The position numbers were made by a program, and so were the translations under genes. The notes below the pieces were generated by a model. The model was not told where the DNA came from and did no database searches. It was given only the letters and a program-made list of their open reading frames with translations. Below, piece after piece: positions 30,973 through 63,936 of a stretch of 64,000 nucleotides of DNA (position 1 is the stretch's first letter; the number at the start of each line of letters is the position of its first letter). Origin of the DNA: a virus; the IMG/VR virus record IMGVR_UViG_3300009370_000002. One strand, written 5' to 3'.

Positions 30973-33900
30973 CTATGCAAAAGATGCACCTGTTCTTGTT
31001 ACCATAAAGTCAATCGCTATATATTCAATCGCTCTCGCAGGCTTTAAGTATACTTGAGCGTACAGAATATTTTGATCTATCATCGCGGCTGTTGTCGTAG
31101 TTGTGTCTAAAACCAACTTAAAGTCTGTTAGTCCAAATCTTGCTTTCACATCATCCAAAATAGGAGTAGCCTCTGAGATAAATCTTGCCCATGTTGAATC
31201 AACATTCTGATCAAAAAGAATATTTTTTGCAACATGCGATATTTTTTCCTTAAGGAACAAGAGCAACCTTCTAACATTAATCCTACTAAGAGCAGAATTG
31301 ATACCAGGCGATTGTAGTGTTTTTTGTCCGAAAATCACAACACCTTCATTCGGAAATGTAGCGATAGGATTAATATGCATTTCGTATAGTTCATCCCTTT
31401 CGTCCGAATCCAGCCTCATTCTTGCTTGAGTTACCATTGGCCCAGTAGGACCACCTAAAGCTCCAAGCCCACCTCTATTAAACCCAGCAGGCGCAAACCA
31501 AGCAGCCGATAAGGCTTCAGATTGTGCCATTCCACCAAGACCAGCAATCGATGAAGGTAACCAAACACGGTTGTTATTGTTCATTCTATCGATAGCCTGT
31601 ACGGCTGGGTAGAAAGTACACGCGAATGTTGAGTTAAACATCCTAGTATTCTCAGCATGATCTACAACAGTTGCAACAGAACCTTGTCGTGTCGCGGCAT
31701 CATCTTCACTTTCATATTCTGAAAGATAGTCTCCAACCAAATCCACAATAGCTAGCATATCTTGTCTATCATCTGCTAGTGAAATAATTCTATCAGTTAT
31801 TGTTGCATCCTGAATACCTGGAGCAAGAATAAGATTAGCAGGAACAACTTCTGGATCCTTAACAGTCTCAACTGCCTTTAGCAAGGTGTGTCTGAGGTAG
31901 TTTGTGGATTCTGATGCTCCCAAGTCGCCAATCAGAGGATTCCTGAATGGTTCAGCTTGAGTAATATCAAGTCCGTGTCTTCCGCCAAACATTGGCATGA
32001 TAAACTGCTTTACCTTTTTGGTAAGAAGTGCAGATGTTCCACCGCTCAAAGCAGTATAAGATGTGTTGCCTTTGCGAGAACCAGAAACATATGTAATGAC
32101 GTTGTTGGCTGTGTCGATTTTGATATTGTCTAGCGAAAAGATAAAGCTGTACTCAAAATCACCCGATGGTTCGTGTGTGCTAGAGTCAAATTCCGATGGC
32201 AATGCTCTTAAATAATCAACATAATCGTTATCGTGAACTCTTGACGTTGTACTATCTTTGGGGCGAATTCCGTATAAAGCTTTATATGGGTTCGCCGGAT
32301 TTCCATCAGAACCAGAATTTCTGAGTATTAGTGATGGAAATTTGAACATAGCTGTTGCATTCGAAGGCAAACCTCCTGCGAAATCATTAATACCTGAATG
32401 GCCACTGGCGGGAACTGAACCGGAACCTTTTACAAATACACCAGCAAATGAAGCCCCTGTACCTAGTGCCCTTGCAGAAGATACACCTTCACTTATATCA
32501 AACCCTTTTGGTCGTCCTGGCCCGGTAAAGCCAAAGGGAAGATCGTTTGGTTGATATCCGCCATCTGATTTTTTCATTTCAACCCAGATATAACTTGAAC
32601 GATTCTCAATATCTCCAATATAAATATATTTCTTAAGTGATTCGCTCCATGATGATATACGGAAATTACCAATTCTATCCTCAATATAATTTGAAGAGTT
32701 GTTGTTCAGGTTGCAGTTTGTGAATTTCTCAAGAAGATTACCAGCAACATCTCTAACTGTAACTGAAAATGAAGGATAAGCATTAACATTGGCGTTTGGA
32801 GCCAATTTGATATCTTCAATTCCAACCATTATTTCTTTTTGCAAATCATCTCCACCATGAAGACAGTGGAACCTAAACAAAGGATTAGCAGCGTATGTTT
32901 CAATATTGTAATCTGTTGGCTCGTTACCTTCATCGTGAGAAATTACCCATCCAGTTTTTGCTTTAGTGTGTTCTTTTCTCTGGTATCCCCAATTTGCCTT
33001 ATTTGCATCTCCATCTGCCTTGTGCAGTGGAAGCAAAACAGCATACTGATTGCCGCTGGTGCTACTTGTTACAAATTGCTTTAAGCTTCTTTCAAAAGTC
33101 TCTCCAAGCCAATATGTTGCTTGATCAGCGCTTGGCGTCATTGTGGTGTTAACCTTTTGGGGGTTGGTGTTGAGTACGTTTCTGATATATTTTGAGCTTG
33201 ACTTGCTAAAATTGAACTTAAGAGTCGAGCCAATCTTTGCAGAAGCAGTATCATAAACATCAATCCCAAACATTAGTGAATCTCCAATAGACTCAATAAA
33301 TGTACAGGCGCTTGATGACTTGTTTGAATTCCCGTCTGGAACGGTACCAGATAGTGTCATATAACCAGAATCACAATAGAGAATTGCCCCAAGGGAACCA
33401 TACTTCCCTCCGGTAATCGCAGCCAAAGTTACGGATATTTGATCGTAAGTACCAGGTGCGCTAGCATCTTCTAATCCGCAATGCAGCCCACTGCTTGACG
33501 CCAATGCCACCGTAGAAGCTCCTAAGTTTCTAATCACCATAACTTTTGCATTACCACCATCGACTTCAACATCGACATTTAGAGTGCCATCATCTATTTT
33601 AACTTGAATTGCAGCTATGAGCGCTAATACAACACCCTCCTCGCTTCCAGCCGAAGAGATATCAACAGCGATGGCATCCGTTGTGGCCGCACCATTGGAT
33701 GAATAATCAAACTCAAATATTGTTGTTCCAACAGTAATGGTTTGTCCCTCATAATTAGAGAGGGTTGAAGTTGTGATTCCCACTTTACTACTTGCACCAC
33801 TGTCGGCTATACATGCAGCTTTATCAATAACAAAAAGCCCGTAAGCTGTTGAATTGTGTGCTGCGCTTGCACTTGGGACACACCCCGATGCTCCGCTTAC

Positions 33901-34263
33901 TTGCCAACCAGCAAAACCATTACTTGAAGGAGTATCAACTTGATCACCCAACAACCGAACAATTGTTACTGGGCTGTTGCCGGATGCTAACCACGCTTGA
34001 GCAGCATAAGAAGCGTATGTGGGAGCACTCATGTTCGGGCCGTCTCTCCATACGTCACCTGTGGCTGATAAGCCACCTGCGGTGGGTTTTCCGAAAACTT
34101 TTACATAGCTATCCCAGCTTGTAATCTTCACTGGTTCCATCGCTGGTCCCTTTAGTGTTCTTCCGATTATAATCGGTCCTAATTCATCTGGAACAGCCGG
34201 CATTGCCGAGTTGTCAATCTCACGTATGTTGATACCCGGTGATTGAAATGTGAATTCTGGCAT
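30973..34263 (-). CDS. tail sheath protein (gp18-like)
   Basis: FQSPGINIREID, WFAPAGFNRG, INPIATFPNEG..IFGQKTLQ, LSRINVRRLL, VYLKPARAIEYIAIDF. Confidence 0.95.
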   Translation of the reverse strand: MPEFTFQSPGINIREIDNSAMPAVPDELGPIIIGRTLKGPAMEPVKITSWDSYVKVFGKPTAGGLSATGDVWRDGPNMSAPTYASYAAQAWLASGNSPVTIVRLLGDQVDTPSSNGFAGWQVSGASGCVPSASAAHNSTAYGLFVIDKAACIADSGASSKVGITTSTLSNYEGQTITVGTTIFEFDYSSNGAATTDAIAVDISSAGSEEGVVLALIAAIQVKIDDGTLNVDVEVDGGNAKVMVIRNLGASTVALASSSGLHCGLEDASAPGTYDQISVTLAAITGGKYGSLGAILYCDSGYMTLSGTVPDGNSNKSSSACTFIESIGDSLMFGIDVYDTASAKIGSTLKFNFSKSSSKYIRNVLNTNPQKVNTTMTPSADQATYWLGETFERSLKQFVTSSTSGNQYAVLLPLHKADGDANKANWGYQRKEHTKAKTGWVISHDEGNEPTDYNIETYAANPLFRFHCLHGGDDLQKEIMVGIEDIKLAPNANVNAYPSFSVTVRDVAGNLLEKFTNCNLNNNSSNYIEDRIGNFRISSWSESLKKYIYIGDIENRSSYIWVEMKKSDGGYQPNDLPFGFTGPGRPKGFDISEGVSSARALGTGASFAGVFVKGSGSVPASGHSGINDFAGGLPSNATAMFKFPSLILRNSGSDGNPANPYKALYGIRPKDSTTSRVHDNDYVDYLRALPSEFDSSTHEPSGDFEYSFIFSLDNIKIDTANNVITYVSGSRKGNTSYTALSGGTSALLTKKVKQFIMPMFGGRHGLDITQAEPFRNPLIGDLGASESTNYLRHTLLKAVETVKDPEVVPANLILAPGIQDATITDRIISLADDRQDMLAIVDLVGDYLSEYESEDDAATRQGSVATVVDHAENTRMFNSTFACTFYPAVQAIDRMNNNNRVWLPSSIAGLGGMAQSEALSAAWFAPAGFNRGGLGALGGPTGPMVTQARMRLDSDERDELYEMHINPIATFPNEGVVIFGQKTLQSPGINSALSRINVRRLLLFLKEKISHVAKNILFDQNVDSTWARFISEATPILDDVKARFGLTDFKLVLDTTTTTAAMIDQNILYAQVYLKPARAIEYIAIDFMVTRTGASFA

Positions 34264-38367: not shown

Positions 38368-40164
38368 TTAGCTTGAGCCGCTCTCACCAAGGAGTCCTCG
38401 AACGATGACAATGCCGTACATATCAGGACGTACCATTTTCTTCGCATAACGAGTCATGACCCCTTTACGAGGCACGAAGTCTTCAGGTCCGAAGATGGTA
38501 GGTGTGGTTTGTAGAGGCACGTAAGGTGCATACACATAACCAGACTCAAGGAAACTGTTTCCTTTACGTCCAATAAGAGCAACATTTCTTGGGAAGTAAG
38601 GATCAACGATAACGTCGAACTTACGACTTAGAGAACCAACCTTAACTGCTCCGATTTCGCCTTTGTCTGCGTCAGCAGTAACATTGGCACGGAACCCAGA
38701 GGTAAACTCAAGAATGTTAGCAATTTCAGGCCCACAAACTACGAAGTTTGCACCACCACGAAGTGTTTTCAAGTGGATTTGAGCAGAAACGTCATTGATG
38801 GTTTCAATAAGAGTCTCATACCATTCGCTTACGGTACCGGTGAAGTCAGGAGAAGCAGCAGTTGCTCCCAATTCTAAACCAGTTTGACGATTTACAAACA
38901 AACCAGGAGAACGACTCCAGTAATAAGTACCAGCAGTTGCGCCATTCACCAAATCAGCCAAGATTTCTCTGTCGATTTCAAGAGCAATTTGCTCCGAAAG
39001 GATAGAGGTAAGCTCAACTTCAGCATCCAAGTTATGATAAGCATTCAAGTCTTGTCCCAATTCGGGAGTCCACTTGGCTTTCAGCTTCTTGGTTTGTGCT
39101 GTAATGGCGATTGAATCAACCTTGATGTCGATTTCTGGAATTTCTTCAAGTCCTTCCATAACCATACCACTAGTCCACAAAAGTCCACCAGCAGCAGCGC
39201 CGGTTGTGGTTGTTGAGTCTTGAACAGGGACTTCAATATCTATATCAGCGGCAAGGCTTACGGTGGTTGTGGTTGCTTCTACAACTACAAAACGAACAGC
39301 AGCAGCGGCGGCGGTGAGAGAACTCTCTCCACTAGCTAATGATACTACACTAGTTAAGCGGCGGATAATTCTAGGATCGTCACTGGCTGCCAAATTTGTT
39401 TGAGCAGCCAACTCGCTTTCTATAATATTAAAAGCAGCCAGATTATTAAAATCGGCATTACCTGTATCGAATACTGATTTTGCAGCATCAATAACTACGG
39501 CTTTTGTACCAGTAAGCGTAAGAAGATCGGGATCATAATTAATCAGCTTCTTTTGAGCTTCAGTTGCAGCAGAAAGGGTGAATTGGTCCTTAATAGCTAA
39601 GGTGGCACCAGCATTTGCGGCTGTTACTGAACCAGTTGGAGAAGACCATGCGCCTCCAACAGCTTGACGCATACCGATGTTCTCTTTCAAAGTTGCACCA
39701 ACGATGTCAACACCACCAGTAACCTCTGAACCAACTTGGTTAGTGCCATAAATTGACTTATCATAAAGATTACCGAATCTGTCACCACCATCAGCAGTGG
39801 AAGCATCAGCACCAGATCCACCGCTTGGTGAATATTTAAAATCAAGGAAGAAGATGAGGCCAGATGGCAAACTCATCGGTTGAACGCTAACTAAGTCATT
39901 AGCGATAAGTCCGGCGAATACTCGTCGAACGATTGGGAATGCTACAGCGGCGAAACCTTCAACATCACCAGCACCCATAGATGAACTCTCACGAAGTAGT
40001 TCTTTTGCTTGGTTTTCAAGCAAGCGAGCCATAGTTGATTTCTTATGGTCGCTATCAAGGCCTTCAAGTAAACCGGTTTGTGTCCATTTATTAAGAAGAG
40101 CTTCCCCTTCCTGTTTCATGTCTCGGTTCACAATGCCTTCGGTAAGTTTTTGTACAATAGACAT
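38368..40164 (-). CDS. major capsid protein (gp23-like)
   Basis: LLENQAKE, FPIVRRVF, VQPMSLPSGLIFFLD, KKLKAKWTPELGQDLNAYH, EIDREIL, YAPYVPL, KGVMTRYA. Confidence 0.97.
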   Translation of the reverse strand: MSIVQKLTEGIVNRDMKQEGEALLNKWTQTGLLEGLDSDHKKSTMARLLENQAKELLRESSSMGAGDVEGFAAVAFPIVRRVFAGLIANDLVSVQPMSLPSGLIFFLDFKYSPSGGSGADASTADGGDRFGNLYDKSIYGTNQVGSEVTGGVDIVGATLKENIGMRQAVGGAWSSPTGSVTAANAGATLAIKDQFTLSAATEAQKKLINYDPDLLTLTGTKAVVIDAAKSVFDTGNADFNNLAAFNIIESELAAQTNLAASDDPRIIRRLTSVVSLASGESSLTAAAAAVRFVVVEATTTTVSLAADIDIEVPVQDSTTTTGAAAGGLLWTSGMVMEGLEEIPEIDIKVDSIAITAQTKKLKAKWTPELGQDLNAYHNLDAEVELTSILSEQIALEIDREILADLVNGATAGTYYWSRSPGLFVNRQTGLELGATAASPDFTGTVSEWYETLIETINDVSAQIHLKTLRGGANFVVCGPEIANILEFTSGFRANVTADADKGEIGAVKVGSLSRKFDVIVDPYFPRNVALIGRKGNSFLESGYVYAPYVPLQTTPTIFGPEDFVPRKGVMTRYAKKMVRPDMYGIVIVRGLLGESGSS

Positions 40165-54422: not shown

Positions 54423-55234
54423 TATTTGTTTACCTCTGCAACCAAATCTTGGATATAAAAAATCTCTTTAACCACCTGTTCTGTAATTGGTGTGTTGGAG
54501 TAAGCGTCAAGTTGCTTTAAAACTTGCTTAGTTTTAGTCAAAAAAGACTCATTTTCAGTGATTTTTTGTTTATTGGTACACAAGTATACCTCAGCCTTAA
54601 GACGTGAAATTTCCTCGTTTATGAACGATTTAAGCCCTAGTCCATTATCGGAAAATGAGGTAATATAATTCATCAACAAATCTTTTTGTTCTTGCCTCAA
54701 GCTATTACCGTATGTTTGATTGAACTTCTTGGTGAATGTTTTGTAGGTGAGGTTATCAATATGATTCATTTCTTTATTTTTTCGCCTTTCTGAAGACATG
54801 AGTCCAACCAGGCGGCTCTCCACAAGAATGCGATTCTTTGCCTTAAGGCTTGAATTGAAGTATGCACCAACAGATGCAATGTCTTTATAGTTTGAAATAA
54901 AATTTGCAAAAGCAGAAGGGGACATTATTTCATTAATTTGCTTGATTAATTTTGTTTGCTGATTGAATATTGCTTTACGATTAAGGCTTTCAAAGTCCTT
55001 CTTCGTCTCAATAAGAAGTCGATGGGCAAATTCCGCCGACACTTTCTTACTCTCTAAGACAGATCGATAAATGTCCAAATCCTGCTTGAGTACAGAACCT
55101 TTCTTGAAATTTTCTTTAACGATGTTCATTATTTTTTGCTTTTTGTCTTGTTGGTTTCTGACGATTGCCTTTGTTAATTCTTTCATAAGACATTCGTAAA
55201 GAAAAGCGGTATTTCTTTTCTTATTGTGTTTCAT
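54422..55234 (-). CDS. hypothetical head-module protein (possible core component)
   Basis: Start refined to MKHNKKRNTAFLYE; helical; directly after portal. Confidence 0.6.
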   Translation of the reverse strand: MKHNKKRNTAFLYECLMKELTKAIVRNQQDKKQKIMNIVKENFKKGSVLKQDLDIYRSVLESKKVSAEFAHRLLIETKKDFESLNRKAIFNQQTKLIKQINEIMSPSAFANFISNYKDIASVGAYFNSSLKAKNRILVESRLVGLMSSERRKNKEMNHIDNLTYKTFTKKFNQTYGNSLRQEQKDLLMNYITSFSDNGLGLKSFINEEISRLKAEVYLCTNKQKITENESFLTKTKQVLKQLDAYSNTPITEQVVKEIFYIQDLVAEVNK

Positions 55235-57134
55235 CCTGTGTCTCCTTTGATTTAAACAGACTCTCAACTAACTTGTTGATGTCGTGCTTTGTATTAAATA
55301 GTTTCTTTTCTTCGTTATCATGAGTCTCCATTATTCCACTTGCCATACTCTTTAGGCCGTCCTTACCACCATAGCCAGCCGGAAGAGATGCCCTTGGAGA
55401 AGAAGGTCTGCCAAACTCCCCAGCCGTCGCCACAGAAGAATAGTTTTGGCTTCTTCTGGATTTTCTCTTCTTTCCTGACATGTTGTATGGCCCTCTAGGA
55501 CTATCATCTCTCTTTGCTGGTGGCTCTGCTAAAAGAATGTCTTCTTCATCTCCACCGGTTTCCTCGGCTGGTTCCTCTCCACCCAAGTCACCACCTAAGT
55601 CACCTTCCAAATCACCACCAAGATCGCCGCCTAAGTCACCACCTAAGTCACCACCCAAATCTCCTCCTCCCTCTTCACCACCACCTTCTGCGGCACCTTC
55701 AAGTTTGGCTGTAAACTTTCTATCAAAGAACATTTCCCTTTGCATGCGAACAAACTCATCTTCTGATAGTCCTAGCAAATTTTCAGCAACCCATCGTTTG
55801 GAAAAGAATCCCTCCGTGGCTGAGCCTGCGATATCAAACTTTGCCTTCCAATGCTCTATTTCTTGAAGTTCGGCAATTTTGGATGGGTTATTGAGGCTGA
55901 GGCTAAATGAGAGCAAATCATCTCCTCTAAAGCCAAGCGTAAACAGGTGAACGATTCCTATCTTTTCCAATTCTGAAATCACCGCTCTTTGGAGTCTTTG
56001 GATTGTTCTGGCGAATCGAATATCTTTTTGAGCTAATGTTGTTTTGTCTTCTGTTGCTCCCTCGCCCATTGTCAAATAAGACTGCGGTATCTTAAGGGCT
56101 GAGAATAGTTTATCTCGTAGATACTTGACATCATCTACTTGTCCAGAATAGTCGCCACCTTTTAGTGACTCTATCTTCGTGTTGGAGGTTCCACCACGAA
56201 CTGGTATAAAATAATCCTCTTCTATTGATAATGGATTGTATCTCAAGTCAACTCTCCCTGTCTTTGGATCCACAACTTGGTGTCGTTTCATTTGAGTCAT
56301 TACCTTCTGCATGTATTGTTCAACGTCCTGTGGAGCGATAGAACCAACATCAACATAAAATGCTCGACGCTCTGGGGCACGAACAATTCGGTATGCCATC
56401 ATCGCATCCTCAAGGAGCGTTAGTTGCCTCCAAATCCGTCGAGCAGGCTCAAGCACTGAGGTACCATAGGGAACGTGTTTGTCATTTCCCATAATCCTAA
56501 AGTGTGCTACCTGCCAGTTTTCCAACGTTAGGGCTGCGCTGTTCCACTGAAACTGTACATAATTGGGATTTGATTCATCTTCGCCCTCCATTCGCTCAAC
56601 TTCTTGCGGAGGCAAGCCAATTGCGCTCCGAATGCCTGCGTCATCGTCAATATCCAAATACAAAAAGAAATCTCCATACTTACACATTGTTCTACACCAA
56701 CCAAACAAGTTGTGTTCAATGTTCATCACATCATGATATAATGCATGCAAGATTGTTTTTATTTCATCATTTGAACACTTTATCTTTAGCATATCGTGCA
56801 AGGCTGAATGTGTTGTCATCTCATCAGCATATATATCAAGGGACGAATTGATTTCGGGGGTGAACTCCATTTGATCAAAATCAACATAACGCTCAGAACG
56901 ATTTCTATTAGATATCATATTGATAGTGGTTACGTTCATTGGGTTGTATTCTGATTTTTTGAATTGTTTCCCGGAAGCTGACTTAAATCTTTTAGCATAT
57001 GTGTCCAAATGTCTTCGTTTTATTTGTCTACCTGACTGCGTTCGACGCTGGGTTATTGGTCCGGAAAAAAGCCTTGTTAACGCTCTGAATAATCCAGACT
57101 CCTCATTATACGGGTTTTTATTGTTTTTAGCCAT
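55221..57134 (-). CDS. portal protein (gp20-like)
   Basis: LDIYADE, MCKYGDFFL, LLEDAMMAYRIVRAPERRAFYVDVG, EEDYFIPVRGG, YLRDKLFSALKIP. Confidence 0.96.
   Translation of the reverse strand: MAKNNKNPYNEESGLFRALTRLFSGPITQRRTQSGRQIKRRHLDTYAKRFKSASGKQFKKSEYNPMNVTTINMISNRNRSERYVDFDQMEFTPEINSSLDIYADEMTTHSALHDMLKIKCSNDEIKTILHALYHDVMNIEHNLFGWCRTMCKYGDFFLYLDIDDDAGIRSAIGLPPQEVERMEGEDESNPNYVQFQWNSAALTLENWQVAHFRIMGNDKHVPYGTSVLEPARRIWRQLTLLEDAMMAYRIVRAPERRAFYVDVGSIAPQDVEQYMQKVMTQMKRHQVVDPKTGRVDLRYNPLSIEEDYFIPVRGGTSNTKIESLKGGDYSGQVDDVKYLRDKLFSALKIPQSYLTMGEGATEDKTTLAQKDIRFARTIQRLQRAVISELEKIGIVHLFTLGFRGDDLLSFSLSLNNPSKIAELQEIEHWKAKFDIAGSATEGFFSKRWVAENLLGLSEDEFVRMQREMFFDRKFTAKLEGAAEGGGEEGGGDLGGDLGGDLGGDLGGDLEGDLGGDLGGEEPAEETGGDEEDILLAEPPAKRDDSPRGPYNMSGKKRKSRRSQNYSSVATAGEFGRPSSPRASLPAGYGGKDGLKSMASGIMETHDNEEKKLFNTKHDINKLVESLFKSKETQDETQ
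55578..55670. repeat. 12-bp degenerate tandem repeat encoding (G/E)GDL x7 in portal tail
   Basis: GGDLGGDLGGDLGGDLGGDLEGDLGGDL in translation. Confidence 0.8.
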
Positions 57135-57142
57135 AATTTATC

Positions 57143-58726
57143 TTATCCTTTGTAAATCCACATAAATTCTTTGATTTGTTCTATTTGTTCTTCATACTTC
57201 TGATTATGCGTTTGAGTATATCCACTCATGCCTTTTATAGCAGTATTCATGACACTATCACTCTTATACATAGAATTTAACATCGCTTTTTTGTATTCTA
57301 TGTCTCTTTTATTAACGTGCATAGCCGTATCCCTCACCCAGCAAGCAATTGCCAAAGCCATTACTAAGTCATCATTATAAGAGCGCATTGCTTGCGGTTT
57401 ACCATTATGCCAAATGAAAGTTTTAAGCTCATGGTATATTCTTGTTGAATATGTTTTAATCATTTTGTTTCTTATAAACTCTTCAAGTTTGGCAACAATC
57501 AGTGGTCGTGTTTTAATCGAGGTTGTGAACCCTGCAACTGCATTTGTCATTGCTTCTCCTTGGTATGCCTCTACATACTCATGAGTTGATTTTATGGAAT
57601 AATACAAGTTAGAATAACCCAAGGTAGTCAACTTCTCTAATATTGAAATACCAATGCCATTATTCTCAACTACCAATAAACAATTTCCAAACTCCGTTCC
57701 CGCTGAAAATAGCATTTGAGAATACATATCCAAATTTGGCTTACCTTGATATTCGGCTACAACTTCCATAGATTCCAGTTTAATAACGTGAAAAACAGAA
57801 TTATCTGCACCGTCTCCTCTAGCCACATCTGCGACAAGTAAGTATGTATTGCCCTCATTATACTTCTCCCACATCCACATGTTTCTATCATACCCGACTC
57901 GATATTCGGGCTCTCTAGCGTTTGAATTAATCCAAGCTAAATCCTCGGGATGAATTACAGTATCTCCAGAAGTGTTGAAGTTACAAAGCAATTCCTGAGC
58001 TATTTGCCTTTTGGACATATTTTTGGTTTCTTTTTCAAACCACCCTTTATCTCTCTCTGGGTGTACATCCCACATCAGCTTTATTGGGTTAAATTCATTC
58101 TCGGCATCCACAGCCCCTATATATGTCTTGTGAAACCAATTCCCTGTGCCTTTTGGTGTTGAAAGTGCAATGCAGCGGCCGCCTGTTGCTAAAGTGGAGT
58201 AAATCGCAGTCCAAATATCATCCATCTTCTCAACATGTGCAGCTTCGTCTACAACCAACAAAGACAATGCTTCTGAGCGGCCAGCATCCTCTGAGGTGGG
58301 TACTGCCTTAATTATTGAACCGTTTGACAATTCAAATGATGTTCTGTTATCAACAGAAATCTGAGCAACCTTCATCCAATCTGGTAGATTTTTCATCATA
58401 CTCTTCACTTTCTTAACAAGATTGGCTGCTGTGCTGAATTTTGTTGCAAGAACAACGATGCTTTTTTCTTTGTGAAAGAGCATAAACCAAACACAATAAG
58501 CAGCAGTGATTGTTGAAATTCCAAGTTGTCTTGCTTTCAGTATTATATTGAAACGAAAATCATTATAGTCATTAAGCAAATCATCTTGATAAGGATAAGT
58601 CTTAAAGCCTATTAGCCCTCTCATGGGATGACTTATACGACAATAGTTGTTAATAAAGTATTGCGAATTCTTACCAGACTTAACAATTTCCTTTACTATT
58701 TCCTTTTTGGTTAAACGGAATGCCAT
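57143..58726 (-). CDS. terminase large subunit (gp17-like)
   Basis: KARQLGIST, LLVVDEAAH, LSTPKG, LLVADVARGDGAD, VVENNGIG, NDDLVMALAI. Confidence 0.96.
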   Translation of the reverse strand: MAFRLTKKEIVKEIVKSGKNSQYFINNYCRISHPMRGLIGFKTYPYQDDLLNDYNDFRFNIILKARQLGISTITAAYCVWFMLFHKEKSIVVLATKFSTAANLVKKVKSMMKNLPDWMKVAQISVDNRTSFELSNGSIIKAVPTSEDAGRSEALSLLVVDEAAHVEKMDDIWTAIYSTLATGGRCIALSTPKGTGNWFHKTYIGAVDAENEFNPIKLMWDVHPERDKGWFEKETKNMSKRQIAQELLCNFNTSGDTVIHPEDLAWINSNAREPEYRVGYDRNMWMWEKYNEGNTYLLVADVARGDGADNSVFHVIKLESMEVVAEYQGKPNLDMYSQMLFSAGTEFGNCLLVVENNGIGISILEKLTTLGYSNLYYSIKSTHEYVEAYQGEAMTNAVAGFTTSIKTRPLIVAKLEEFIRNKMIKTYSTRIYHELKTFIWHNGKPQAMRSYNDDLVMALAIACWVRDTAMHVNKRDIEYKKAMLNSMYKSDSVMNTAIKGMSGYTQTHNQKYEEQIEQIKEFMWIYKG

Positions 58727-59284: not shown

Positions 59285-59669
59285 TGTTGGGTCTCCATCC
59301 TAATGTCCATCGTTTCTCTCTGCCTTCTACCCATTGTATATAGCACTTAAAGCAACAATCAAACTTAGACATATAAACATCATCTTTTGACTTAAATGAG
59401 TACGTACTACACACAGGACAAGAACGCTTTGATTCTTTTGTAAGTAGTTTCTTGGATATGAAAACTCCATTTACCTCCTCTTCTGAAGACTCTTGCTCTA
59501 TTTGATGAGAGTGAAGTGTTTTCAAATCATTAAGATATTTTTTTTCTTTATCGTCTGACCATTCGCTTTTTGGGTGTTGGACTGTTTCGTTTCCGTATTT
59601 TTCCACTATTGCATTTTCAACCTTAATAGCATAATTGGGATCTTTACTTTTCACTCCTACTCCTATCAA
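59277..59669 (-). CDS. hypothetical protein with Zn-binding Cys motifs
   Basis: CPVC...CCFKCY. Confidence 0.6.
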   Translation of the reverse strand: MIGVGVKSKDPNYAIKVENAIVEKYGNETVQHPKSEWSDDKEKKYLNDLKTLHSHQIEQESSEEEVNGVFISKKLLTKESKRSCPVCSTYSFKSKDDVYMSKFDCCFKCYIQWVEGREKRWTLGWRPNNG

Positions 59670-59929
59670 CCAGCAGCCTGAATGGCGGCTTTGATTACTT
59701 TATCAACTGCGCCTGCTAGTGTTTCATCTCCAGCGGCTTTTGCAATTTCTATTGCCTTTTTCAATATGATATCGTTTATTTGACTGCCAACCTCTTCGGC
59801 TGCATCTCCTGCTTTATCTCCAATGTCACCAAAATCAACAGCGGCTTCTTCTTCTGCAAGTGTTATCTCATTATACAAATCAACTTCTTCTTTAATAATC
59901 TGCTTTAATCTTTGTTCTGTTATTTTCAT
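59666..59929 (-). CDS. leader-bearing small acidic protein
   Basis: starts MKITEQRLKQIIKEEV. Confidence 0.6.
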   Translation of the reverse strand: MKITEQRLKQIIKEEVDLYNEITLAEEEAAVDFGDIGDKAGDAAEEVGSQINDIILKKAIEIAKAAGDETLAGAVDKVIKAAIQAAG

Positions 59930-59941
59930 TTTCTGTCTCCT

Positions 59942-60346
59942 TTATTTTACAGCATGCATGATTCCAATTGATGTCAACACACCAGCAACAAAGCCACCTG
60001 CTAACCAAAAACCATCTTTACTTGGTTTAATTAGTTTCTTAAGTTGTTCATTCTCATCTTTCTTTATTGTAATCATATCATTCAGCCTCTGATCGTCAGC
60101 TTCACACCTTGCCTCTAATAAATCGTATTTATGCTTTTCTTCAGCTTTGGCTCTGCCTTTGTGGTACTCTATCTCAATGGTGCATTGTTGTGCTTTGTAG
60201 CGGTTCTCCACTATAAGCTTAGATACAGCCTCTGAATTAAATAGTCTTCCATCGAAGGGTGCTTTTTGGCCCTTCTTTAAGACAACAAATTCTGGCTCTG
60301 CTCCATATGCAACAGGAAAAGCCAGTAACAATAACATTAAAATCAT
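59942..60346 (-). CDS. secreted coiled-coil protein with C-terminal TM (spanin-like)
   Basis: Signal peptide, coiled-coil and C-terminal FWLAGGFVAGVLTSIGI helix. Confidence 0.5.
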   Translation of the reverse strand: MILMLLLLAFPVAYGAEPEFVVLKKGQKAPFDGRLFNSEAVSKLIVENRYKAQQCTIEIEYHKGRAKAEEKHKYDLLEARCEADDQRLNDMITIKKDENEQLKKLIKPSKDGFWLAGGFVAGVLTSIGIMHAVK

Positions 60347-60353
60347 TTTTACC

Positions 60354-60599
60354 TCACTGAATATTTTTGGTTGATTGGTTAATCTCTAATGTAAAATCTT
60401 TTCTGAGTTTGATTAGTGGATTAAAGTTTGCCTTCTTTCTTTCCAAGACAAGTGCTCCTTGGGGCTTTACCAATTCACCCTCAAGCTCTAGGGCTTCAAA
60501 ATCAATTTCTGTCTTATCCTTATAAACAACTTTTGGCTCATCGTTTGCAATGGAATATGGGCTGTACGCCAAGAGGGCTATAATAAAGCACTTTTTCAT
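60354..60599 (-). CDS. cglF: adventurous gliding motility protein CglF/GltF-like
   Basis: Signal peptide then YKDKTEIDFEALELEGELVKPQG...RKKANFNPLIKLRKDF...QS, matching the KT.IDF....IEG.L.KP.G....RK......LI..R..F pattern I recall for myxobacterial CglF/GltF. Confidence 0.7.
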   Translation of the reverse strand: MKKCFIIALLAYSPYSIANDEPKVVYKDKTEIDFEALELEGELVKPQGALVLERKKANFNPLIKLRKDFTLEINQSTKNIQ

Positions 60600-61396
60600 T
60601 GTTCTTGCCTCATAGCTGCCATTTGTTCTCTGATTGCATCAATCAATTGTTCTTCCATCGTTGGGTCTTGAACATCTACGCTTCCAGTATCTCCTTTGCC
60701 CCACACGGCATCTCTATCAGGCGAGGGGCTTTCTCTTTCTGCTTCTAACGATTTATAAGTTACTGGTGGAAGTCTGCTTGTCGGGCCGGACTTATCAGTC
60801 TTTACCATGTTGCCTCTTCTATCTATTGCCCAGTCTCCAACATAAACCCAGTTTTTGCCTATGGAGCCTCCCATAGCATCATGGCCCTTTACCTTGCCAT
60901 GTATATAGCCATATGGTGAAACATAAGCTTCATATTCTCTCCAACTGTCAAGGGATTTATCTCGCATGAAATTAGCAATTTCCCTGGTTGATGAAATTTT
61001 CCTAGATGGAAGATTCTCTTCGGGATATCCTTTCATGATTATTTCCACTGTTGAGCGAGGAGGATCATCATCAGGTAATGAACCCTCCCTTTCATAAGGA
61101 TTCCAAGTTGCCATCTTGTGGCCTGCTCGGGCGTTATCATATACAGCTTGCTTCATATACTCTTCTTTTGTCATCGCCAATCTCTTGTGGGACTTTTCGC
61201 TTGCTGCATCCCATTCTTTCCCGGCAGAGACAGCTATCTGATATGCGGTAGACTTCGGATCAAGTTTTTCCCACCACTTAGCCTCATTTAAAAGTTGAAA
61301 GAAATCAATCTTACTCCAAGGCAATTTGCTTTCAACAACTGCTCTAATTCTTTCTTCTGTCATTATTTTCTTGAGCAATTCGTTTGAAACTTTCAT
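60596..61396 (-). CDS. leader-bearing orphan protein
   Basis: starts MKVSNELLKKIMTEE. Confidence 0.6.
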   Translation of the reverse strand: MKVSNELLKKIMTEERIRAVVESKLPWSKIDFFQLLNEAKWWEKLDPKSTAYQIAVSAGKEWDAASEKSHKRLAMTKEEYMKQAVYDNARAGHKMATWNPYEREGSLPDDDPPRSTVEIIMKGYPEENLPSRKISSTREIANFMRDKSLDSWREYEAYVSPYGYIHGKVKGHDAMGGSIGKNWVYVGDWAIDRRGNMVKTDKSGPTSRLPPVTYKSLEAERESPSPDRDAVWGKGDTGSVDVQDPTMEEQLIDAIREQMAAMRQEQ

Positions 61397-61566
61397 TTAC
61401 TCTTTCTCCTTATAAGCTTGTTTGTTTTGGCAATCTCGGAGTGAAGCTCGCTAATTTCTTGTTCTATATTATCCAATCGCATCTGAGTTGTATAATAGAA
61501 GCCACCAAGTATTGCGATTACACTTCCAACTGTTAATGCTGTTTTGATATCAATTTCTGTTTTCAT
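61393..61566 (-). CDS. small TM + coiled-coil protein (57 aa, below ORF-track cutoff)
   Basis: MKTEIDIKTALTVGSVIAILGGFYYTTQMRLDNIEQEISELHSEIAKTNKLIRRKSK; 4-nt overlaps with both neighbours. Confidence 0.6.
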   Translation of the reverse strand: MKTEIDIKTALTVGSVIAILGGFYYTTQMRLDNIEQEISELHSEIAKTNKLIRRKSK

Positions 61567-61964
61567 CCTTTTTGAATTCCCAATTCTTGTTCTAAAATCC
61601 TATCTATCTCTTCGGGGCTGTGTTTTGCTTTTTGTACCATTTTCTTGATTGCCTCTTTTTGGCTGTGGGTTGTGTTCCACTTGTCTTCTTCATACTTCTC
61701 TTCAATTTTCTTAACCGCTTCAGAGTATCTTTTGTTTGCTTCTTCTCTTTTCTTAATCTCAAGCTCATGCGCTCTCTCAATTGCCTCTTTCTCTTTCTTG
61801 TACTGCTCTTTGGCTAGATTCGCCTGAAGTTTGATGCTACCTGCGCTCCTTCTGCCTAACGTATAAGCAATAACAAAGATAGTTAATAATACTAACCAGC
61901 GCCAATGCTGCCGACAGAAGACACCAGCTATCTTAAGATATTTAAGCGCAGCTAACCAAGTCAC
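61563..61964 (-). CDS. N-terminal TM coiled-coil protein (i-spanin-like)
   Basis: WRWLVLLTIFVIAYTLG followed by long charged coiled-coil. Confidence 0.5.
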   Translation of the reverse strand: MTWLAALKYLKIAGVFCRQHWRWLVLLTIFVIAYTLGRRSAGSIKLQANLAKEQYKKEKEAIERAHELEIKKREEANKRYSEAVKKIEEKYEEDKWNTTHSQKEAIKKMVQKAKHSPEEIDRILEQELGIQKG

Positions 61965-63010
61965 ACCCTTGCACCTCTTGCAGCAGCAACCTTCTTTAAG
62001 TCTTCAACCAAGCCAGCGGCTCCACGTTGCTGTTGCCAAGATACCAAATCACCAGTGTTTGCTCGATAACCATCGCCCATGCCAGCATAAGACATCCATT
62101 CACCCCATTGCCTTGCGGCATCTGGGCCTGCGGCTCCTGCTGTATACATCTTGTCGAGTTCAATCATCATGCCGCTCTCAGTCATTCCAGAGAGTTTAAG
62201 ATTCTCAACGATTGACCAAACATCAGTGTCCATCTCCAATACTTCACTGATACCCTCTTCTACCGGGCTACCATACATGTGTGCAGACATGGCTTCATAC
62301 TCTCTACACGCTTTTTCATCACCAGCATCACATTTTGCTTTCATGTCCATTAGGTAATCTTCTTCTCGGGACTGCTCTTGAACCTTCCCAAATTCCTCTC
62401 TTATCATCTGCTTGAGTTGTTCTGAGGTTATGTTCAGCGACTCTTGAAAGCCAAAGAAGCCGGGCTTCTTGGCGTATTGCCCAGCAGCAGTTTTACTTTG
62501 TATCCAATCCATCGTAGATTCAAATTTGCCTTTTTTCCAATCACTTTTGAAATCCTGCATCAACTTTGCAGTTAGTGATTCTGGGCGGTATTTACCAAAA
62601 TCCATTGCACCACCTTCGGCACCAGACTTCAAAAACTTCAACAAATCTGCTTCAGCTTGGGCCTCCAATTTCCTACTATAAGGCACTGAATAGTCTCGTT
62701 CTGGTGCTTTTCTTTTACCGCTGTCTTGAGCTTTGTCAAGCATTTGTCTCATATCTTCTTCTTCGTCTGCTTTGAAAACACCTGATGCGATAGCGTTGGT
62801 ATAAGCCTTTATTATAGCAGCCTTGTCACCAGAATCTCTTGCGAGTGTAATTTTAGCTCTTTGTCTTGATTTCTCAGCTTGCTCTTCTCGGTTAAATTTA
62901 TCCAACTCGGAAGGGACAACATCATCATGTCGCCCACGAGTTTGGAAGTCCATGTCTCCACGGATTGATTCTCTAATCAGTTGCCTAAGTTGTTTGGTTG
63001 TTAATTTCAT
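61961..63010 (-). CDS. leader-bearing orphan protein with a second internal leader copy
   Basis: starts MKLTTKQLRQLIRES; internal LNITSEQLKQMIREE. Confidence 0.65.
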   Translation of the reverse strand: MKLTTKQLRQLIRESIRGDMDFQTRGRHDDVVPSELDKFNREEQAEKSRQRAKITLARDSGDKAAIIKAYTNAIASGVFKADEEEDMRQMLDKAQDSGKRKAPERDYSVPYSRKLEAQAEADLLKFLKSGAEGGAMDFGKYRPESLTAKLMQDFKSDWKKGKFESTMDWIQSKTAAGQYAKKPGFFGFQESLNITSEQLKQMIREEFGKVQEQSREEDYLMDMKAKCDAGDEKACREYEAMSAHMYGSPVEEGISEVLEMDTDVWSIVENLKLSGMTESGMMIELDKMYTAGAAGPDAARQWGEWMSYAGMGDGYRANTGDLVSWQQQRGAAGLVEDLKKVAAARGARV

Positions 63011-63014
63011 CAGC

Positions 63015-63377
63015 TTATTCCTCCATGTGAGATGCCATTTGGCGTAATGATTCTTGGCTATTGTTTGAAGCTGAAAGGCGCATACCTTTTTGCCTATAAC
63101 CTTGTGCCTTTAGTGCTTCTATTACCTCACCCAAGTCTCCGCCGCCCATACCACTAGGGTAGTATTGTGAGCCGCGACTTTGTTCTGGTTCGATAATTCC
63201 GATGACGCCATTGTTATAATCATACTGTCCAAAACTCTGTGGTTTTCCAGAAACGCCACCGACAACTCCATATCTAAAGTCATACTTCATCATCTTATCA
63301 ACGTCCTGCGCTCTGCCCATCATTTCGTTGAGTTCTTCTTTAATAATCTGTTTAAGTTGTTTTTGTGTCAATTTCAT
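63015..63377 (-). CDS. leader-bearing orphan protein
   Basis: Start refined to MKLTQKQLKQIIKEEL (TGATG overlap with upstream stop). Confidence 0.6.
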   Translation of the reverse strand: MKLTQKQLKQIIKEELNEMMGRAQDVDKMMKYDFRYGVVGGVSGKPQSFGQYDYNNGVIGIIEPEQSRGSQYYPSGMGGGDLGEVIEALKAQGYRQKGMRLSASNNSQESLRQMASHMEE

Positions 63378-63655
63378 CACATTTGCCCTCCATTTTTCCA
63401 AACTTTAACCATATCGATGACAGATTGTCCACCGACATAAATCATCGCAATCAAGCCCCATGTGTCTGGGTCCAAGTCTGCCCAGACAAGAAGTCCAGTT
63501 GCAACCAAGAACACGAACAGCTTTCGTGAAATTGCCTTTGAAAGGATAACGTCCATTACCCCAACCTTGTTAACTAAGTCTACGGCTTCACAGCCGGTGC
63601 AGTCTTGCACATCACAATGTGCCTCTTCTACTTCAACATCATTTTGTTCGCTCAT
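63377..63655 (-). CDS. putative holin (two TM helices)
   Basis: SRKLFVFLVATGLLVW...TWGLIAMIYVGGQSVID. Confidence 0.55.
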   Translation of the reverse strand: MSEQNDVEVEEAHCDVQDCTGCEAVDLVNKVGVMDVILSKAISRKLFVFLVATGLLVWADLDPDTWGLIAMIYVGGQSVIDMVKVWKNGGQM

Positions 63656-63936
63656 TATTTATTCCTCTTTTTTGATTCTTGCATCATTCCGCCCATGGCC
63701 ATTTCCAAAGCTTGCATGATACTTCCTTCCCTTGGGGGTTGGATGTTTTTCGCAGCTTGTGAGCTATCAAGAAGCTGTTTAAACTCAGCAGCAAGTTGTT
63801 GGATAGCTTGTTGATCAAAACCTTGTGCGGCTCTGTGGGTGTGTCCTGTCCATGTCTCATGCCCTTCACCAATAGAGTGCTTCAATTCTTCTTTGATAAT
63901 CTCTTTCAGTTGTTCTGCTGTTAACTTCATCGGCAT
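63655..63936 (-). CDS. leader-bearing small protein
   Basis: MKLTAEQLKEIIKEEL (second Met at 63930 or first at 63936); AGGAG RBS. Confidence 0.6.
   Translation of the reverse strand: MPMKLTAEQLKEIIKEELKHSIGEGHETWTGHTHRAAQGFDQQAIQQLAAEFKQLLDSSQAAKNIQPPREGSIMQALEMAMGGMMQESKKRNK

What the first reader, a model, noticed from the sequence alone, without database searches (positions are those of the whole stretch)
60354..60599. Phage-encoded CglF/GltF-like adventurous gliding motility protein
Seen: an 81-aa ORF with a signal peptide and KTEIDFEALELEGELVKPQGALVLERKKANFNPLIKLRKDF. Known: CglF/GltF is a small exported component of the Agl-Glt gliding machinery of Myxococcus, with homologues in Bdellovibrio-type predators, and cglF defects are rescued by contact-dependent outer membrane exchange. 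Inference: the phage captured a host motility/envelope subunit. It could alter gliding of infected cells, mask a receptor (superinfection exclusion), or pass to neighbours by membrane exchange. It also points to a Myxococcota/Bdellovibrionota-type host. I am not aware of this being described in phages but cannot verify that here.
Basis: partly seen in the sequence, partly recalled or inferred. Interest (0 to 1): 0.85.

Follow-up and report, generated by a model that had tools for sequence, protein, structure and literature searches.

The report
Phage copy of gliding-machine linker GltF
An uncultured marine T4-like phage carries a well-preserved, exported copy of GltF, the small periplasmic linker of the myxobacterial gliding-type envelope machine, which hints at a myxobacterial host and at viral control of that machine.

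Summary
The 81-aa ORF is real (minus strand, 60354-60599) and is a true GltF/CglF homologue. It matches NCBIfam NF033764 at E 1e-13 (50.8 bits, below the 90-bit cut-off). It is 50-70% identical to the small gene between gltE and gltG in gltC-D-E-F-G-cglE operons of marine Myxococcota MAGs, and those positional GltFs score only 53-55 bits themselves.

It keeps a signal peptide, the conserved strand motif, the FNPLIxLR block and a C-terminal helix. Published models have the strand and helix dock on GltG and GltC. Between phages dN/dS is about 0.01.

The gene is not unique to this phage. 37 IMG/VR contigs in at least five phage genome contexts carry it, none with glt neighbours. Within this phage's own clade it is accessory: 5 of 80 terminase relatives have it.

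Viral and cellular copies interleave in the tree, so the direction of transfer is unresolved. The effect on the host (sustain or jam the machine) and the host itself (probably marine Myxococcota) are inferred, not shown.

No paper describing a phage GltF was found. This scan had already noted the same gene on other phage genomes.

The parts
60354..60599 (-). gltF/cglF-like gene, 81 aa (stop codon included)
   Evidence: ORF. NF033764 E 1.2e-13. 50-70% identical to positional gltF of marine Myxococcota MAGs. dN/dS about 0.01 against L060.
60546..60599 (-). predicted type I signal peptide (residues 1-18, cleavage after SIA)
   Evidence: Read from the sequence. Every homologue, viral or cellular, has an equivalent hydrophobic leader ending in A-x-A-like residues followed by an acidic stretch. 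No predictor was run.
60456..60524 (-). conserved strand motif, residues 26-48 (YK.KTEIDFE...GELVKPQG)
   Evidence: Y26, T30, I32, F34, G41 and P46 are invariant in both the 33 viral and the 41 cellular sequences; D33 and K45 are invariant in the cellular set and 94-97% conserved in the viral set. The profile alignment places it at the GltF segment that PMC11761067 models as a beta-strand added to the TonB-like C-terminal domain of GltG.
60402..60425 (-). conserved FNPLIKLR block, residues 59-66
   Evidence: F59, N60, P61, I63 and R66 are invariant in viral and cellular copies alike. Its partner is unknown.
60360..60419 (-). C-terminal amphipathic helix, residues 61-80
   Evidence: The AF2 model has helix 61-80 and the rest without stable structure (mean pLDDT 63). 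It corresponds to the C-terminal helix of M. xanthus GltF that is modelled in a GltC crevice (PMC11761067).
60596..61396 (-). context: upstream 266-aa gene, translationally coupled (ATGA overlap); starts with the MK.xxxxLKxIxxEE leader
   Evidence: No Pfam, NCBIfam or PHROG match. Not found in most relatives.
59942..60346 (-). context: downstream 134-aa protein with an N-terminal signal-like leader and a C-terminal hydrophobic segment; backbone gene of this phage clade
   Evidence: Present in most terminase relatives whether or not they carry gltF. Its look-alikes are viral only.
61563..61964 (-). context: 133-aa protein with an N-terminal membrane segment and a coiled coil; backbone gene. In gltF-less relatives it lies next to, or close to, the 134-aa gene
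   Evidence: Weak Rz-like spanin PHROG hits, E 2e-3. Gene orders.
61393..61566 (-). context: 57-aa membrane and coiled-coil protein in the same variable slot
   Evidence: weak Rz-like hit, E 4e-3. Present in some relatives only.

Best explanation
The gene encodes a functional, Sec-exported GltF homologue. GltF is the short, mostly disordered periplasmic linker of the Agl-Glt (or Nfs-type) envelope-spanning machine of Myxococcota. In an infected cell the protein would enter the periplasm. Like host GltF, it would dock its conserved strand motif on the TonB-like C-terminal domain of GltG and its C-terminal helix on the TPR protein GltC. This would replace or top up a small, probably short-lived host subunit, so that the machine keeps working (or is re-tuned) while host gene expression is shut down. 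That is the same logic as cyanophage psbA.

Shown: homology, export signal, preserved interaction elements, strong purifying selection, spread among phages. Inferred: the binding partners (from published models of the M. xanthus proteins), the host (marine Myxococcota) and the direction of the effect.
For: NF033764 matches at E 1.2e-13 across the mature protein. That family rings in none of 14 control genomes.

48 of 53 cellular loci found with the family profile place the homologue beside gltG. 44 of these show the gltD-gltE-gltF-gltG order and most continue into cglE. NCBIfam names the neighbours GltC, GltE, GltG and CglE. These positional GltFs score 53-55 bits, like the phage's 50.8.

The residues invariant in cellular GltF are the same ones that are invariant or nearly so in 33 viral copies. 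The only systematic shifts are conservative: V to I/L, L to V, D to E. This argues for the same partners.

The AF2 monomer is disordered with a C-terminal helix at 61-80, as reported for M. xanthus GltF, whose strand and helix are modelled on GltG and GltC (PMC11761067).

dN/dS is about 0.01, and pN is 0.01-0.23 with synonymous sites saturated.

Both docking elements are retained, not just one, which fits a complete linker better than a simple blocker.
Against: No experiment or confident complex model supports binding, and the partner assignment is carried over from a modelling paper on M. xanthus. The gene is accessory: only 5 of 80 terminase relatives carry it in this slot, which fits a host-interaction 'moron' as well as an auxiliary gene. 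Phage GC is 0.41 against 0.52-0.70 at the cellular glt loci. The nearest cultured phages are remote and infect Flavobacterium, Microcystis and Rhodothermus (TerL 41-45%), so the host is not established. The score lies under the NCBIfam equivalog cut-off. Whether the MAG operon drives gliding at all is unknown, because a contiguous C-D-E-F-G-H order also resembles the Nfs spore-coat operon.
Confidence: 0.45

Rival explanations
1. The docking is the same but the effect is the opposite. The phage floods the periplasm with a bivalent linker (or a slightly altered one). This uncouples GltG from GltC, stalls the machine and changes what the outer-membrane Glt platform exposes. The infected cell is immobilised and/or related phages that use the platform as receptor are excluded (superinfection exclusion).
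For: The gene is accessory and sits in a variable slot together with other small, lineage-specific genes, as exclusion and host-takeover morons usually do. It occurs in at least five unrelated phage genome contexts, suggesting a self-contained, portable function. Small exported phage proteins that disable a motility organelle to block superinfection are known for type IV pili (my own knowledge, not checked here).
Against: A blocker needs only one binding element, yet strand motif, FNPLIxLR block and C-terminal helix are all conserved as in cells. No phage-specific substitution suggests loss of one interface. The receptor of these phages is unknown.
Confidence: 0.3
2. The host is not a myxobacterium. 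The gene came once from Myxococcota, spread between phages, and now targets a different TonB-, TolA- or ExbD-type periplasmic domain in other marine bacteria, for example Bacteroidota, which the low GC and the nearest cultured phages would fit.
For: Phage GC is 0.33-0.45 for most carriers against 0.52-0.70 for glt loci. The nearest cultured relatives infect Flavobacterium. Viral clades mostly lie outside the main cellular clade. The motif also works as a module inside unrelated large proteins with VIT-VWA or DUF4139 domains.
Against: The scan of one genome for each of 185,579 species found close homologues almost only beside glt genes and none in Bacteroidota. The same residues are constrained in viral and cellular copies, which is unexpected if the partner had changed. 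Some viral copies nest inside cellular clades: L065 lies within the UBA2957/UBA796 group with support 99/95. Some carriers have GC of 0.50-0.57.
Confidence: 0.12
3. It is part of the phage's own envelope or lysis cassette. It would be a periplasmic adaptor working with the neighbouring membrane and coiled-coil proteins (spanin-like pair) rather than with a host machine.
For: It is flanked by a 133-aa and a 57-aa membrane and coiled-coil protein with weak Rz-like PHROG hits (E 2e-3 to 4e-3) and by a 134-aa protein with a signal-like leader and a C-terminal hydrophobic segment. In another phage type it lies two genes from an endolysin-like gene.
Against: The 133-aa and 134-aa genes are kept in most relatives without gltF. 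In other lineages the gene sits beside nucleotide-metabolism genes, PhoH, GroEL or topoisomerase genes. No GltG-like domain is encoded in the window. The Rz-like hits are weak.
Confidence: 0.07
4. It is a passenger or an artefact: a decaying captured gene, or cellular DNA mis-assembled into a viral contig.
For: None beyond the gene's accessory status.
Against: The identical gene lies in the same phage context on several independently assembled contigs and in related phages at 68-89% identity. The window has no glt neighbours and uniform phage gene content. Purifying selection is strong.
Confidence: 0.02

Closest known systems
GltF = CglF of Myxococcus xanthus (MXAN_4868; NCBIfam NF033764)
   Same: Small Sec-exported protein with the same conserved core (strand motif, FNPLIxLR block, C-terminal helix). 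Mostly disordered in models. Significant profile match over the whole mature part.
   Different: Encoded by a phage, outside any glt operon. Scores 50.8 bits against a 90-bit equivalog cut-off. It is closer to the gltF of uncultured marine Myxococcota (50-70% identity) than to the soil-myxobacterial sequences the model was trained on. Function not tested.
Positional gltF of marine Myxococcota MAGs (e.g. UBA796, UBA2957, UBA2385 and 'Myxococcota bacterium' MAGs; loci L007-L051)
   Same: 50-70% identity, same length class, same invariant residues, same sub-cut-off NF033764 score.
   Different: The cellular genes lie in gltC-gltD-gltE-gltF-gltG-cglE operons at 52-70% GC. The phage gene lies two to three kb upstream of the terminase gene, in a 41% GC genome.
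NfsF of the Nfs spore-coat machine (paralogue of the Glt system)
   Same: Same family by descent according to the literature. The MAG operons have the contiguous C-to-H order typical of nfs. Many genomes of the phylum carry two or more family members.
   Different: No NfsF reference sequence was at hand, so Glt-type and Nfs-type could not be told apart here.
Phage auxiliary genes that replace a labile host subunit (cyanophage psbA/D1); recalled, not checked here
   Same: A host-derived subunit of a large host machine, kept under strong purifying selection and spread over several phage lineages.
   Different: psbA is metabolic and experimentally proven. Here the machine is a motility/envelope complex and nothing is proven.
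Small phage proteins that disable type IV pili for superinfection exclusion (e.g. Tip, Aqs1); recalled, not checked here
   Same: A small accessory phage protein aimed at a motility organelle of the host.
   Different: Those are not homologues of a machine subunit and act from the cytoplasm or inner membrane. This one is a subunit homologue exported to the periplasm.

Membership tests
GltF/CglF (NCBIfam NF033764) | Profile match above the curated equivalog cut-off (90 bits) | tested here: not met
   50.8 bits, E 1.2e-13. The cut-off is also missed by the positional gltF genes of marine Myxococcota (53.1 bits; 51-55 bits), so it separates Myxococcus-like sequences, not the wider family.
GltF/CglF (NCBIfam NF033764) | Significant, full-length homology to the family and to genes in the gltF position | tested here: met
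   Residues 17-80 align to profile positions 25-88 of 88. 50-70% identity to the gene between gltE and gltG in 44 MAG loci. 0 of 14 control genomes match the family.
GltF/CglF (NCBIfam NF033764) | Small protein with a type I signal peptide (periplasmic or envelope location) | tested here: inconclusive
   81 aa. MKK, a hydrophobic stretch and SIA|ND were read from the sequence, and the same layout occurs in all homologues. No signal-peptide predictor or experiment was available.
GltF/CglF (NCBIfam NF033764) | Largely disordered chain with a conserved strand segment and a C-terminal helix | tested here: met
   The AF2 model has helix 61-80 and the rest unstructured, pLDDT 63. This matches the description of M. 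xanthus GltF in PMC11761067.
GltF/CglF (NCBIfam NF033764) | Encoded within a glt (or nfs) gene cluster between gltE and gltG | tested here: not met
   The gene is in a phage genome. There are no GltD, GltE, GltG or CglE homologues in the window or in any of the 37 viral loci.
GltF/CglF (NCBIfam NF033764) | Binds GltG C-terminal domain and GltC; localises to focal-adhesion clusters; required for gliding | not testable with these tools
   Needs binding assays, localisation and complementation. See Tried and rejected for the one modelling attempt, which gave no verdict.
Two-component spanin (Rz/Rz1-like) | Outer-membrane lipoprotein (lipobox Cys) paired with an inner-membrane coiled-coil partner | tested here: not met
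   The signal peptide has no lipobox. The only Cys is residue 4, inside the leader. No PHROG lysis family matches the protein. The gene is absent from most relatives that keep the neighbouring membrane proteins.

The most novel reading that the evidence does not exclude
Marine phages of several lineages encode a working subunit of a bacterial motility/envelope machine and use it to steer that machine in infected predatory (myxobacterial) cells. They would either keep an infected hunter moving or freeze it and hide the outer-membrane platform from competing phages. This would be the first virus-encoded structural component of a gliding apparatus. It would also give a one-gene marker linking a large, host-less group of marine T4-like phages to uncultured marine Myxococcota.
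Probability: 0.35. Interest if true: 0.8.

Novelty: new variant of a known kind. Interest (0 to 1): 0.64.

Why it matters
GltF is the least understood piece of the Agl-Glt machine: a short disordered linker whose contacts are known only from models. A natural set of dozens of diverged phage and cellular copies pinpoints the residues that cannot change, and so gives a direct handle on its interfaces.

For phage biology, it extends host-derived auxiliary genes from metabolism to a motility/envelope machine. It also suggests that viruses interfere with the movement or surface state of predatory bacteria.

For ecology, it offers a testable host assignment (marine Myxococcota, some with genomes of about 3.5 Mb) for abundant uncultured T4-like marine phages that have no cultured relative closer than about 45% terminase identity.

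Tried and rejected
(1) Complex prediction of the phage protein (residues 20-81, alignment A1) with the GltG C-terminal domain of a marine MAG (alignment A2) returned 'no answer': median score 0.30 against a mark of 0.32, and the controls were not run. It counts neither for nor against binding.

(3) tblastn of the protein against 50,697 deposited phage genomes found nothing. The phage DNA matches no deposited phage beyond an 89-nt stretch.

(4) Pfam and PHROGs have no family for the protein.

(5) Promoter-like and terminator-like sites around the gene are no more frequent than in shuffles.

(6) There are no tRNA or tmRNA genes in the window. A tmRNA on another gltF-carrying phage (L064, tag ANNNYYYESARLAA) shares only the ANNN start with tags of three gltF-bearing MAGs. 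This is too weak to assign a host.

(7) HMM searches of all window reading frames found no GltG-C-terminal-like domain and no second gltF.

(8) The tree has only 66 columns and cannot give donor or direction: 7 label changes by parsimony, at least 2 forced by well-supported branches.

(9) The spanin idea was considered and set aside; see the rival explanations.

(10) The Pathak and Wall 2012 paper on cglF is not held.

Full report
**The observation**

The ORF is real.
- Residues 1-18 (MKK, a hydrophobic run, then SIA|ND) read as a type I signal peptide. This was judged by eye only.
- The start codon overlaps the stop of the upstream 266-aa gene (ATGA), with GAGG about 10 nt upstream, so the gene lies in an operon of tightly packed minus-strand genes.
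- The window is a T4-like myovirus. It has a large terminase at 57143-58726, a T4-type portal at 55221-57134, a major head protein at 38368-40164, a tail sheath at 30973-34263, tail fibre, RNR and DnaB helicase.
- No whole genome is held for it. Its nearest deposited phages are remote: Flavobacterium phage immuto (TerL 44.7%, MCP 48.9%), Microcystis phage Mel-JY01 and Rhodothermus phage RM378.

**What the protein is**

NCBIfam NF033764 (adventurous gliding motility protein CglF) matches residues 17-80 to profile positions 25-88 of 88, at E 1.2e-13 and 50.8 bits. This is below the 90-bit equivalog cut-off. Pfam and PHROGs have nothing.

The sub-threshold score does not argue against homology.
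- A profile of phage and metagenomic copies (A1) scanned over one genome per species returned 53 cellular loci.
- In 44 of them the homologue (50-70% identical to the phage protein) sits between a GltE-like and a GltG-like gene. Four further Bdellovibrionales loci hold copies about 30% identical beside GltD-like and GltG-like genes.
- NCBIfam names the neighbours in two MAGs: GltC (E 1e-67), a large TPR GltD-like protein, GltE (E 8e-43), GltG (E 1.5e-115) and CglE (130 bits, over its cut-off).
- The positional gltF of these operons scores 53-55 bits on NF033764, the same as the phage protein. The family matches none of 14 control genomes.
- The profile finds the family in 174 of 301 sampled genomes of the phylum of the UBA796 MAG, often in two or more copies.

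The phage protein is therefore a member of the GltF family in the broad sense. It is closest to the gltF of uncultured marine Myxococcota.

**Anatomy and constraint**

Forty-one distinct cellular and 33 distinct viral sequences were compared.
- The same positions are invariant or nearly so in both sets: Y26, T30, I32, D33, F34, G41, K45, P46, L50, R54, F59-N-P-L-I63, L65, R66, D68, E72 and S76.
- The only systematic viral shifts are conservative: V to I/L at position 39, L to V at 51, D to E at 53.
- The AF2 monomer is unstructured apart from the leader and a C-terminal helix at 61-80 (pLDDT 63).
- This matches the published description of M. xanthus GltF (PMC11761067). That protein is largely disordered. 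One beta-strand is modelled in parallel with the sheet of the TonB-like C-terminal domain of GltG, and a C-terminal helix lies in a crevice of the TPR protein GltC. GltF thereby bridges GltC, GltD and GltG.
- By the profile alignment, the phage's YK.KTEIDFE...GELVKPQG motif corresponds to that strand and its helix 61-80 to that helix.
- Functional GltF-mCherry localises to focal-adhesion clusters, and gltF is needed for GltD clustering (PMC3169522).
- Between this phage and its relatives synonymous sites are saturated (pS 0.66-1.0) while pN is 0.01-0.23. dN/dS is about 0.01 against L060.

**Distribution in phages**

- The identical gene lies in the same context on four independently assembled contigs, and at 71% identity on a 95.8-kb contig.
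- IMG/VR holds 37 loci with the gene. None has glt neighbours, and GC ranges from 0.33 to 0.57.
- They fall into at least five genome contexts:
  - this phage's type, upstream of terminase and portal;
  - beside nucleotide-metabolism genes;
  - endolysin-like gene, one further gene, gltF, then GroEL;
  - beside PhoH;
  - near topoisomerase II.
  PHROG matches confirm all of these as phage.
- Within this phage's own clade the gene is accessory. Of 80 terminase relatives (68-93% identity), only five carry it. Of the 35 with at least 3 kb upstream of the terminase, three do.
- The clade's backbone is a SbcCD-like gene, a 92-aa protein, a 133-aa membrane and coiled-coil protein, a 134-aa protein with a leader and a C-terminal hydrophobic segment, a 130-aa protein, a 183-aa protein, then TerL. 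gltF lies in a variable slot between the 133-aa and 134-aa genes, with other small lineage-specific genes.
- In a 66-column tree, viral and cellular sequences interleave: 7 changes by parsimony, at least 2 forced by well-supported branches. This phage sits in a four-member viral clade (support 99/87). One viral copy (L065) nests within the UBA2957/UBA796 cellular group (99/95). Exchange happened more than once; the direction is unresolved.

**How it most likely works**

Shown: homology, an export leader, preservation of both modelled interaction elements, purifying selection, and repeated retention by phages.

Inferred: that the protein reaches the periplasm of a host possessing GltG and GltC, and docks there as host GltF does.

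Two effects are compatible with this.
- I favour replacement or top-up of a short, probably labile host linker so that the machine keeps running during infection (0.45). A pure blocker would not need every element of the linker, and the constrained residues are those constrained in cells.
- The main rival (0.30) is that excess linker uncouples GltG from GltC and stalls or masks the machine, for example for superinfection exclusion. The gene's accessory, moron-like placement fits this.
- Lesser rivals are a changed target in a non-myxobacterial host (0.12; suggested by low GC and the nearest cultured phages, but opposed by the restriction of close cellular homologues to glt operons and by the shared constraint pattern), a role in the phage's own spanin-like cassette (0.07), and passenger or artefact (0.02).
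- It is also unknown whether the MAG operon drives gliding, because its contiguous C-to-H order resembles the Nfs spore-coat operon as much as the split glt clusters of M. xanthus.

**Host**

The assignment to marine Myxococcota rests on this gene alone. Supporting details are modest.
- Some carriers have GC of 0.50-0.57.
- One viral copy nests among UBA796-type sequences, and the UBA796 MAG is about 3.5 Mb.
- The ANNN start shared by tmRNA tags is too weak to use.

**Novelty**

Full-text searches for CglF, GltF, gliding and phage terms found no report of a phage-encoded Glt component. A 2026 preprint on myxophages discusses envelope-modifying auxiliary genes but not glt genes.

Earlier notes of this scan describe the same gene on other phage genomes and reach the same reading. 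I reached mine from my own searches. The accessory status within the terminase clade and the contiguous gltC-to-cglE operon are not mentioned in the short summaries of those notes that I saw.

I class the finding as a new variant of a known kind: a host-derived auxiliary or moron gene, here a subunit of a motility/envelope machine.

Noticed in passing
window 59666-59929, 60596-61396, 61961-63010, 63015-63401, 63655-63936 (all minus strand); also L076:4985-5932, L079:5038-5934 and many ORFs in L105-L182: Many otherwise unrelated phage proteins begin with the same leader (MK[LI]T.[KE]QL[KR]QIIKEE-like). They fill the variable slots of this phage clade and also occur in other gltF-carrying phage lineages. 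Its function is unknown.
   Followed up: partly
window 61563-61964 and 59942-60346 (minus strand): A 133-aa protein (N-terminal membrane segment, coiled coil, weak Rz-like hits) and a 134-aa protein (signal-like leader, coiled coil, C-terminal hydrophobic segment) are backbone genes. They lie next to or overlapping each other in gltF-less relatives (e.g. L124, L149). In L114 and L116 the second one has an LMAC lipobox-like leader. This may be a spanin-like pair.
   Followed up: partly
window 55221-57134 (portal, C-terminal part): The portal protein carries a run of GGDL repeats followed by an acidic and then a basic low-complexity tail.
   Followed up: no
P0213, P0257; L052:5319-9302, L054:6900-8864, L055:6003-8672: The GltF core motif also occurs as an internal module of large cellular proteins: VIT-VWA or VWA proteins, a DUF4140/DUF4139 protein, and a 1328-aa protein with weak TPR hits. 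This suggests a portable docking peptide for the Glt machine.
   Followed up: partly
G192:C46:1333-2205, G055:C11:94462-95325, G077:C24:47701-48328, G232:C458:14928-15612, G237:C1:32551-33178: Several genomes of the phylum carry two gltF-family genes in tandem, one close to and one more distant from the phage-type profile.
   Followed up: no
L007, L015, L016, L019, L022, L028, L033, L036-L039, L041, L046: MAG records titled 'uncultured Enterobacterales bacterium' or 'Cognaticolwellia sp.' carry complete gltC-to-cglE operons at 58-69% GC. Their submitted names are almost certainly wrong, or the contigs are mis-binned.
   Followed up: no
L064:3921-4331: Another gltF-carrying phage contig encodes a tmRNA with tag ANNNYYYESARLAA. 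Three gltF-bearing MAGs have tags ANNNNNFALAA, ANNNKHFALAA and ANNNDNFAAAAVA.
   Followed up: partly
P0067, P0070: Two metagenomic members of the family are named 'RNase P/RNase MRP subunit p29' by JGI. This looks like a spurious automatic annotation.
   Followed up: no
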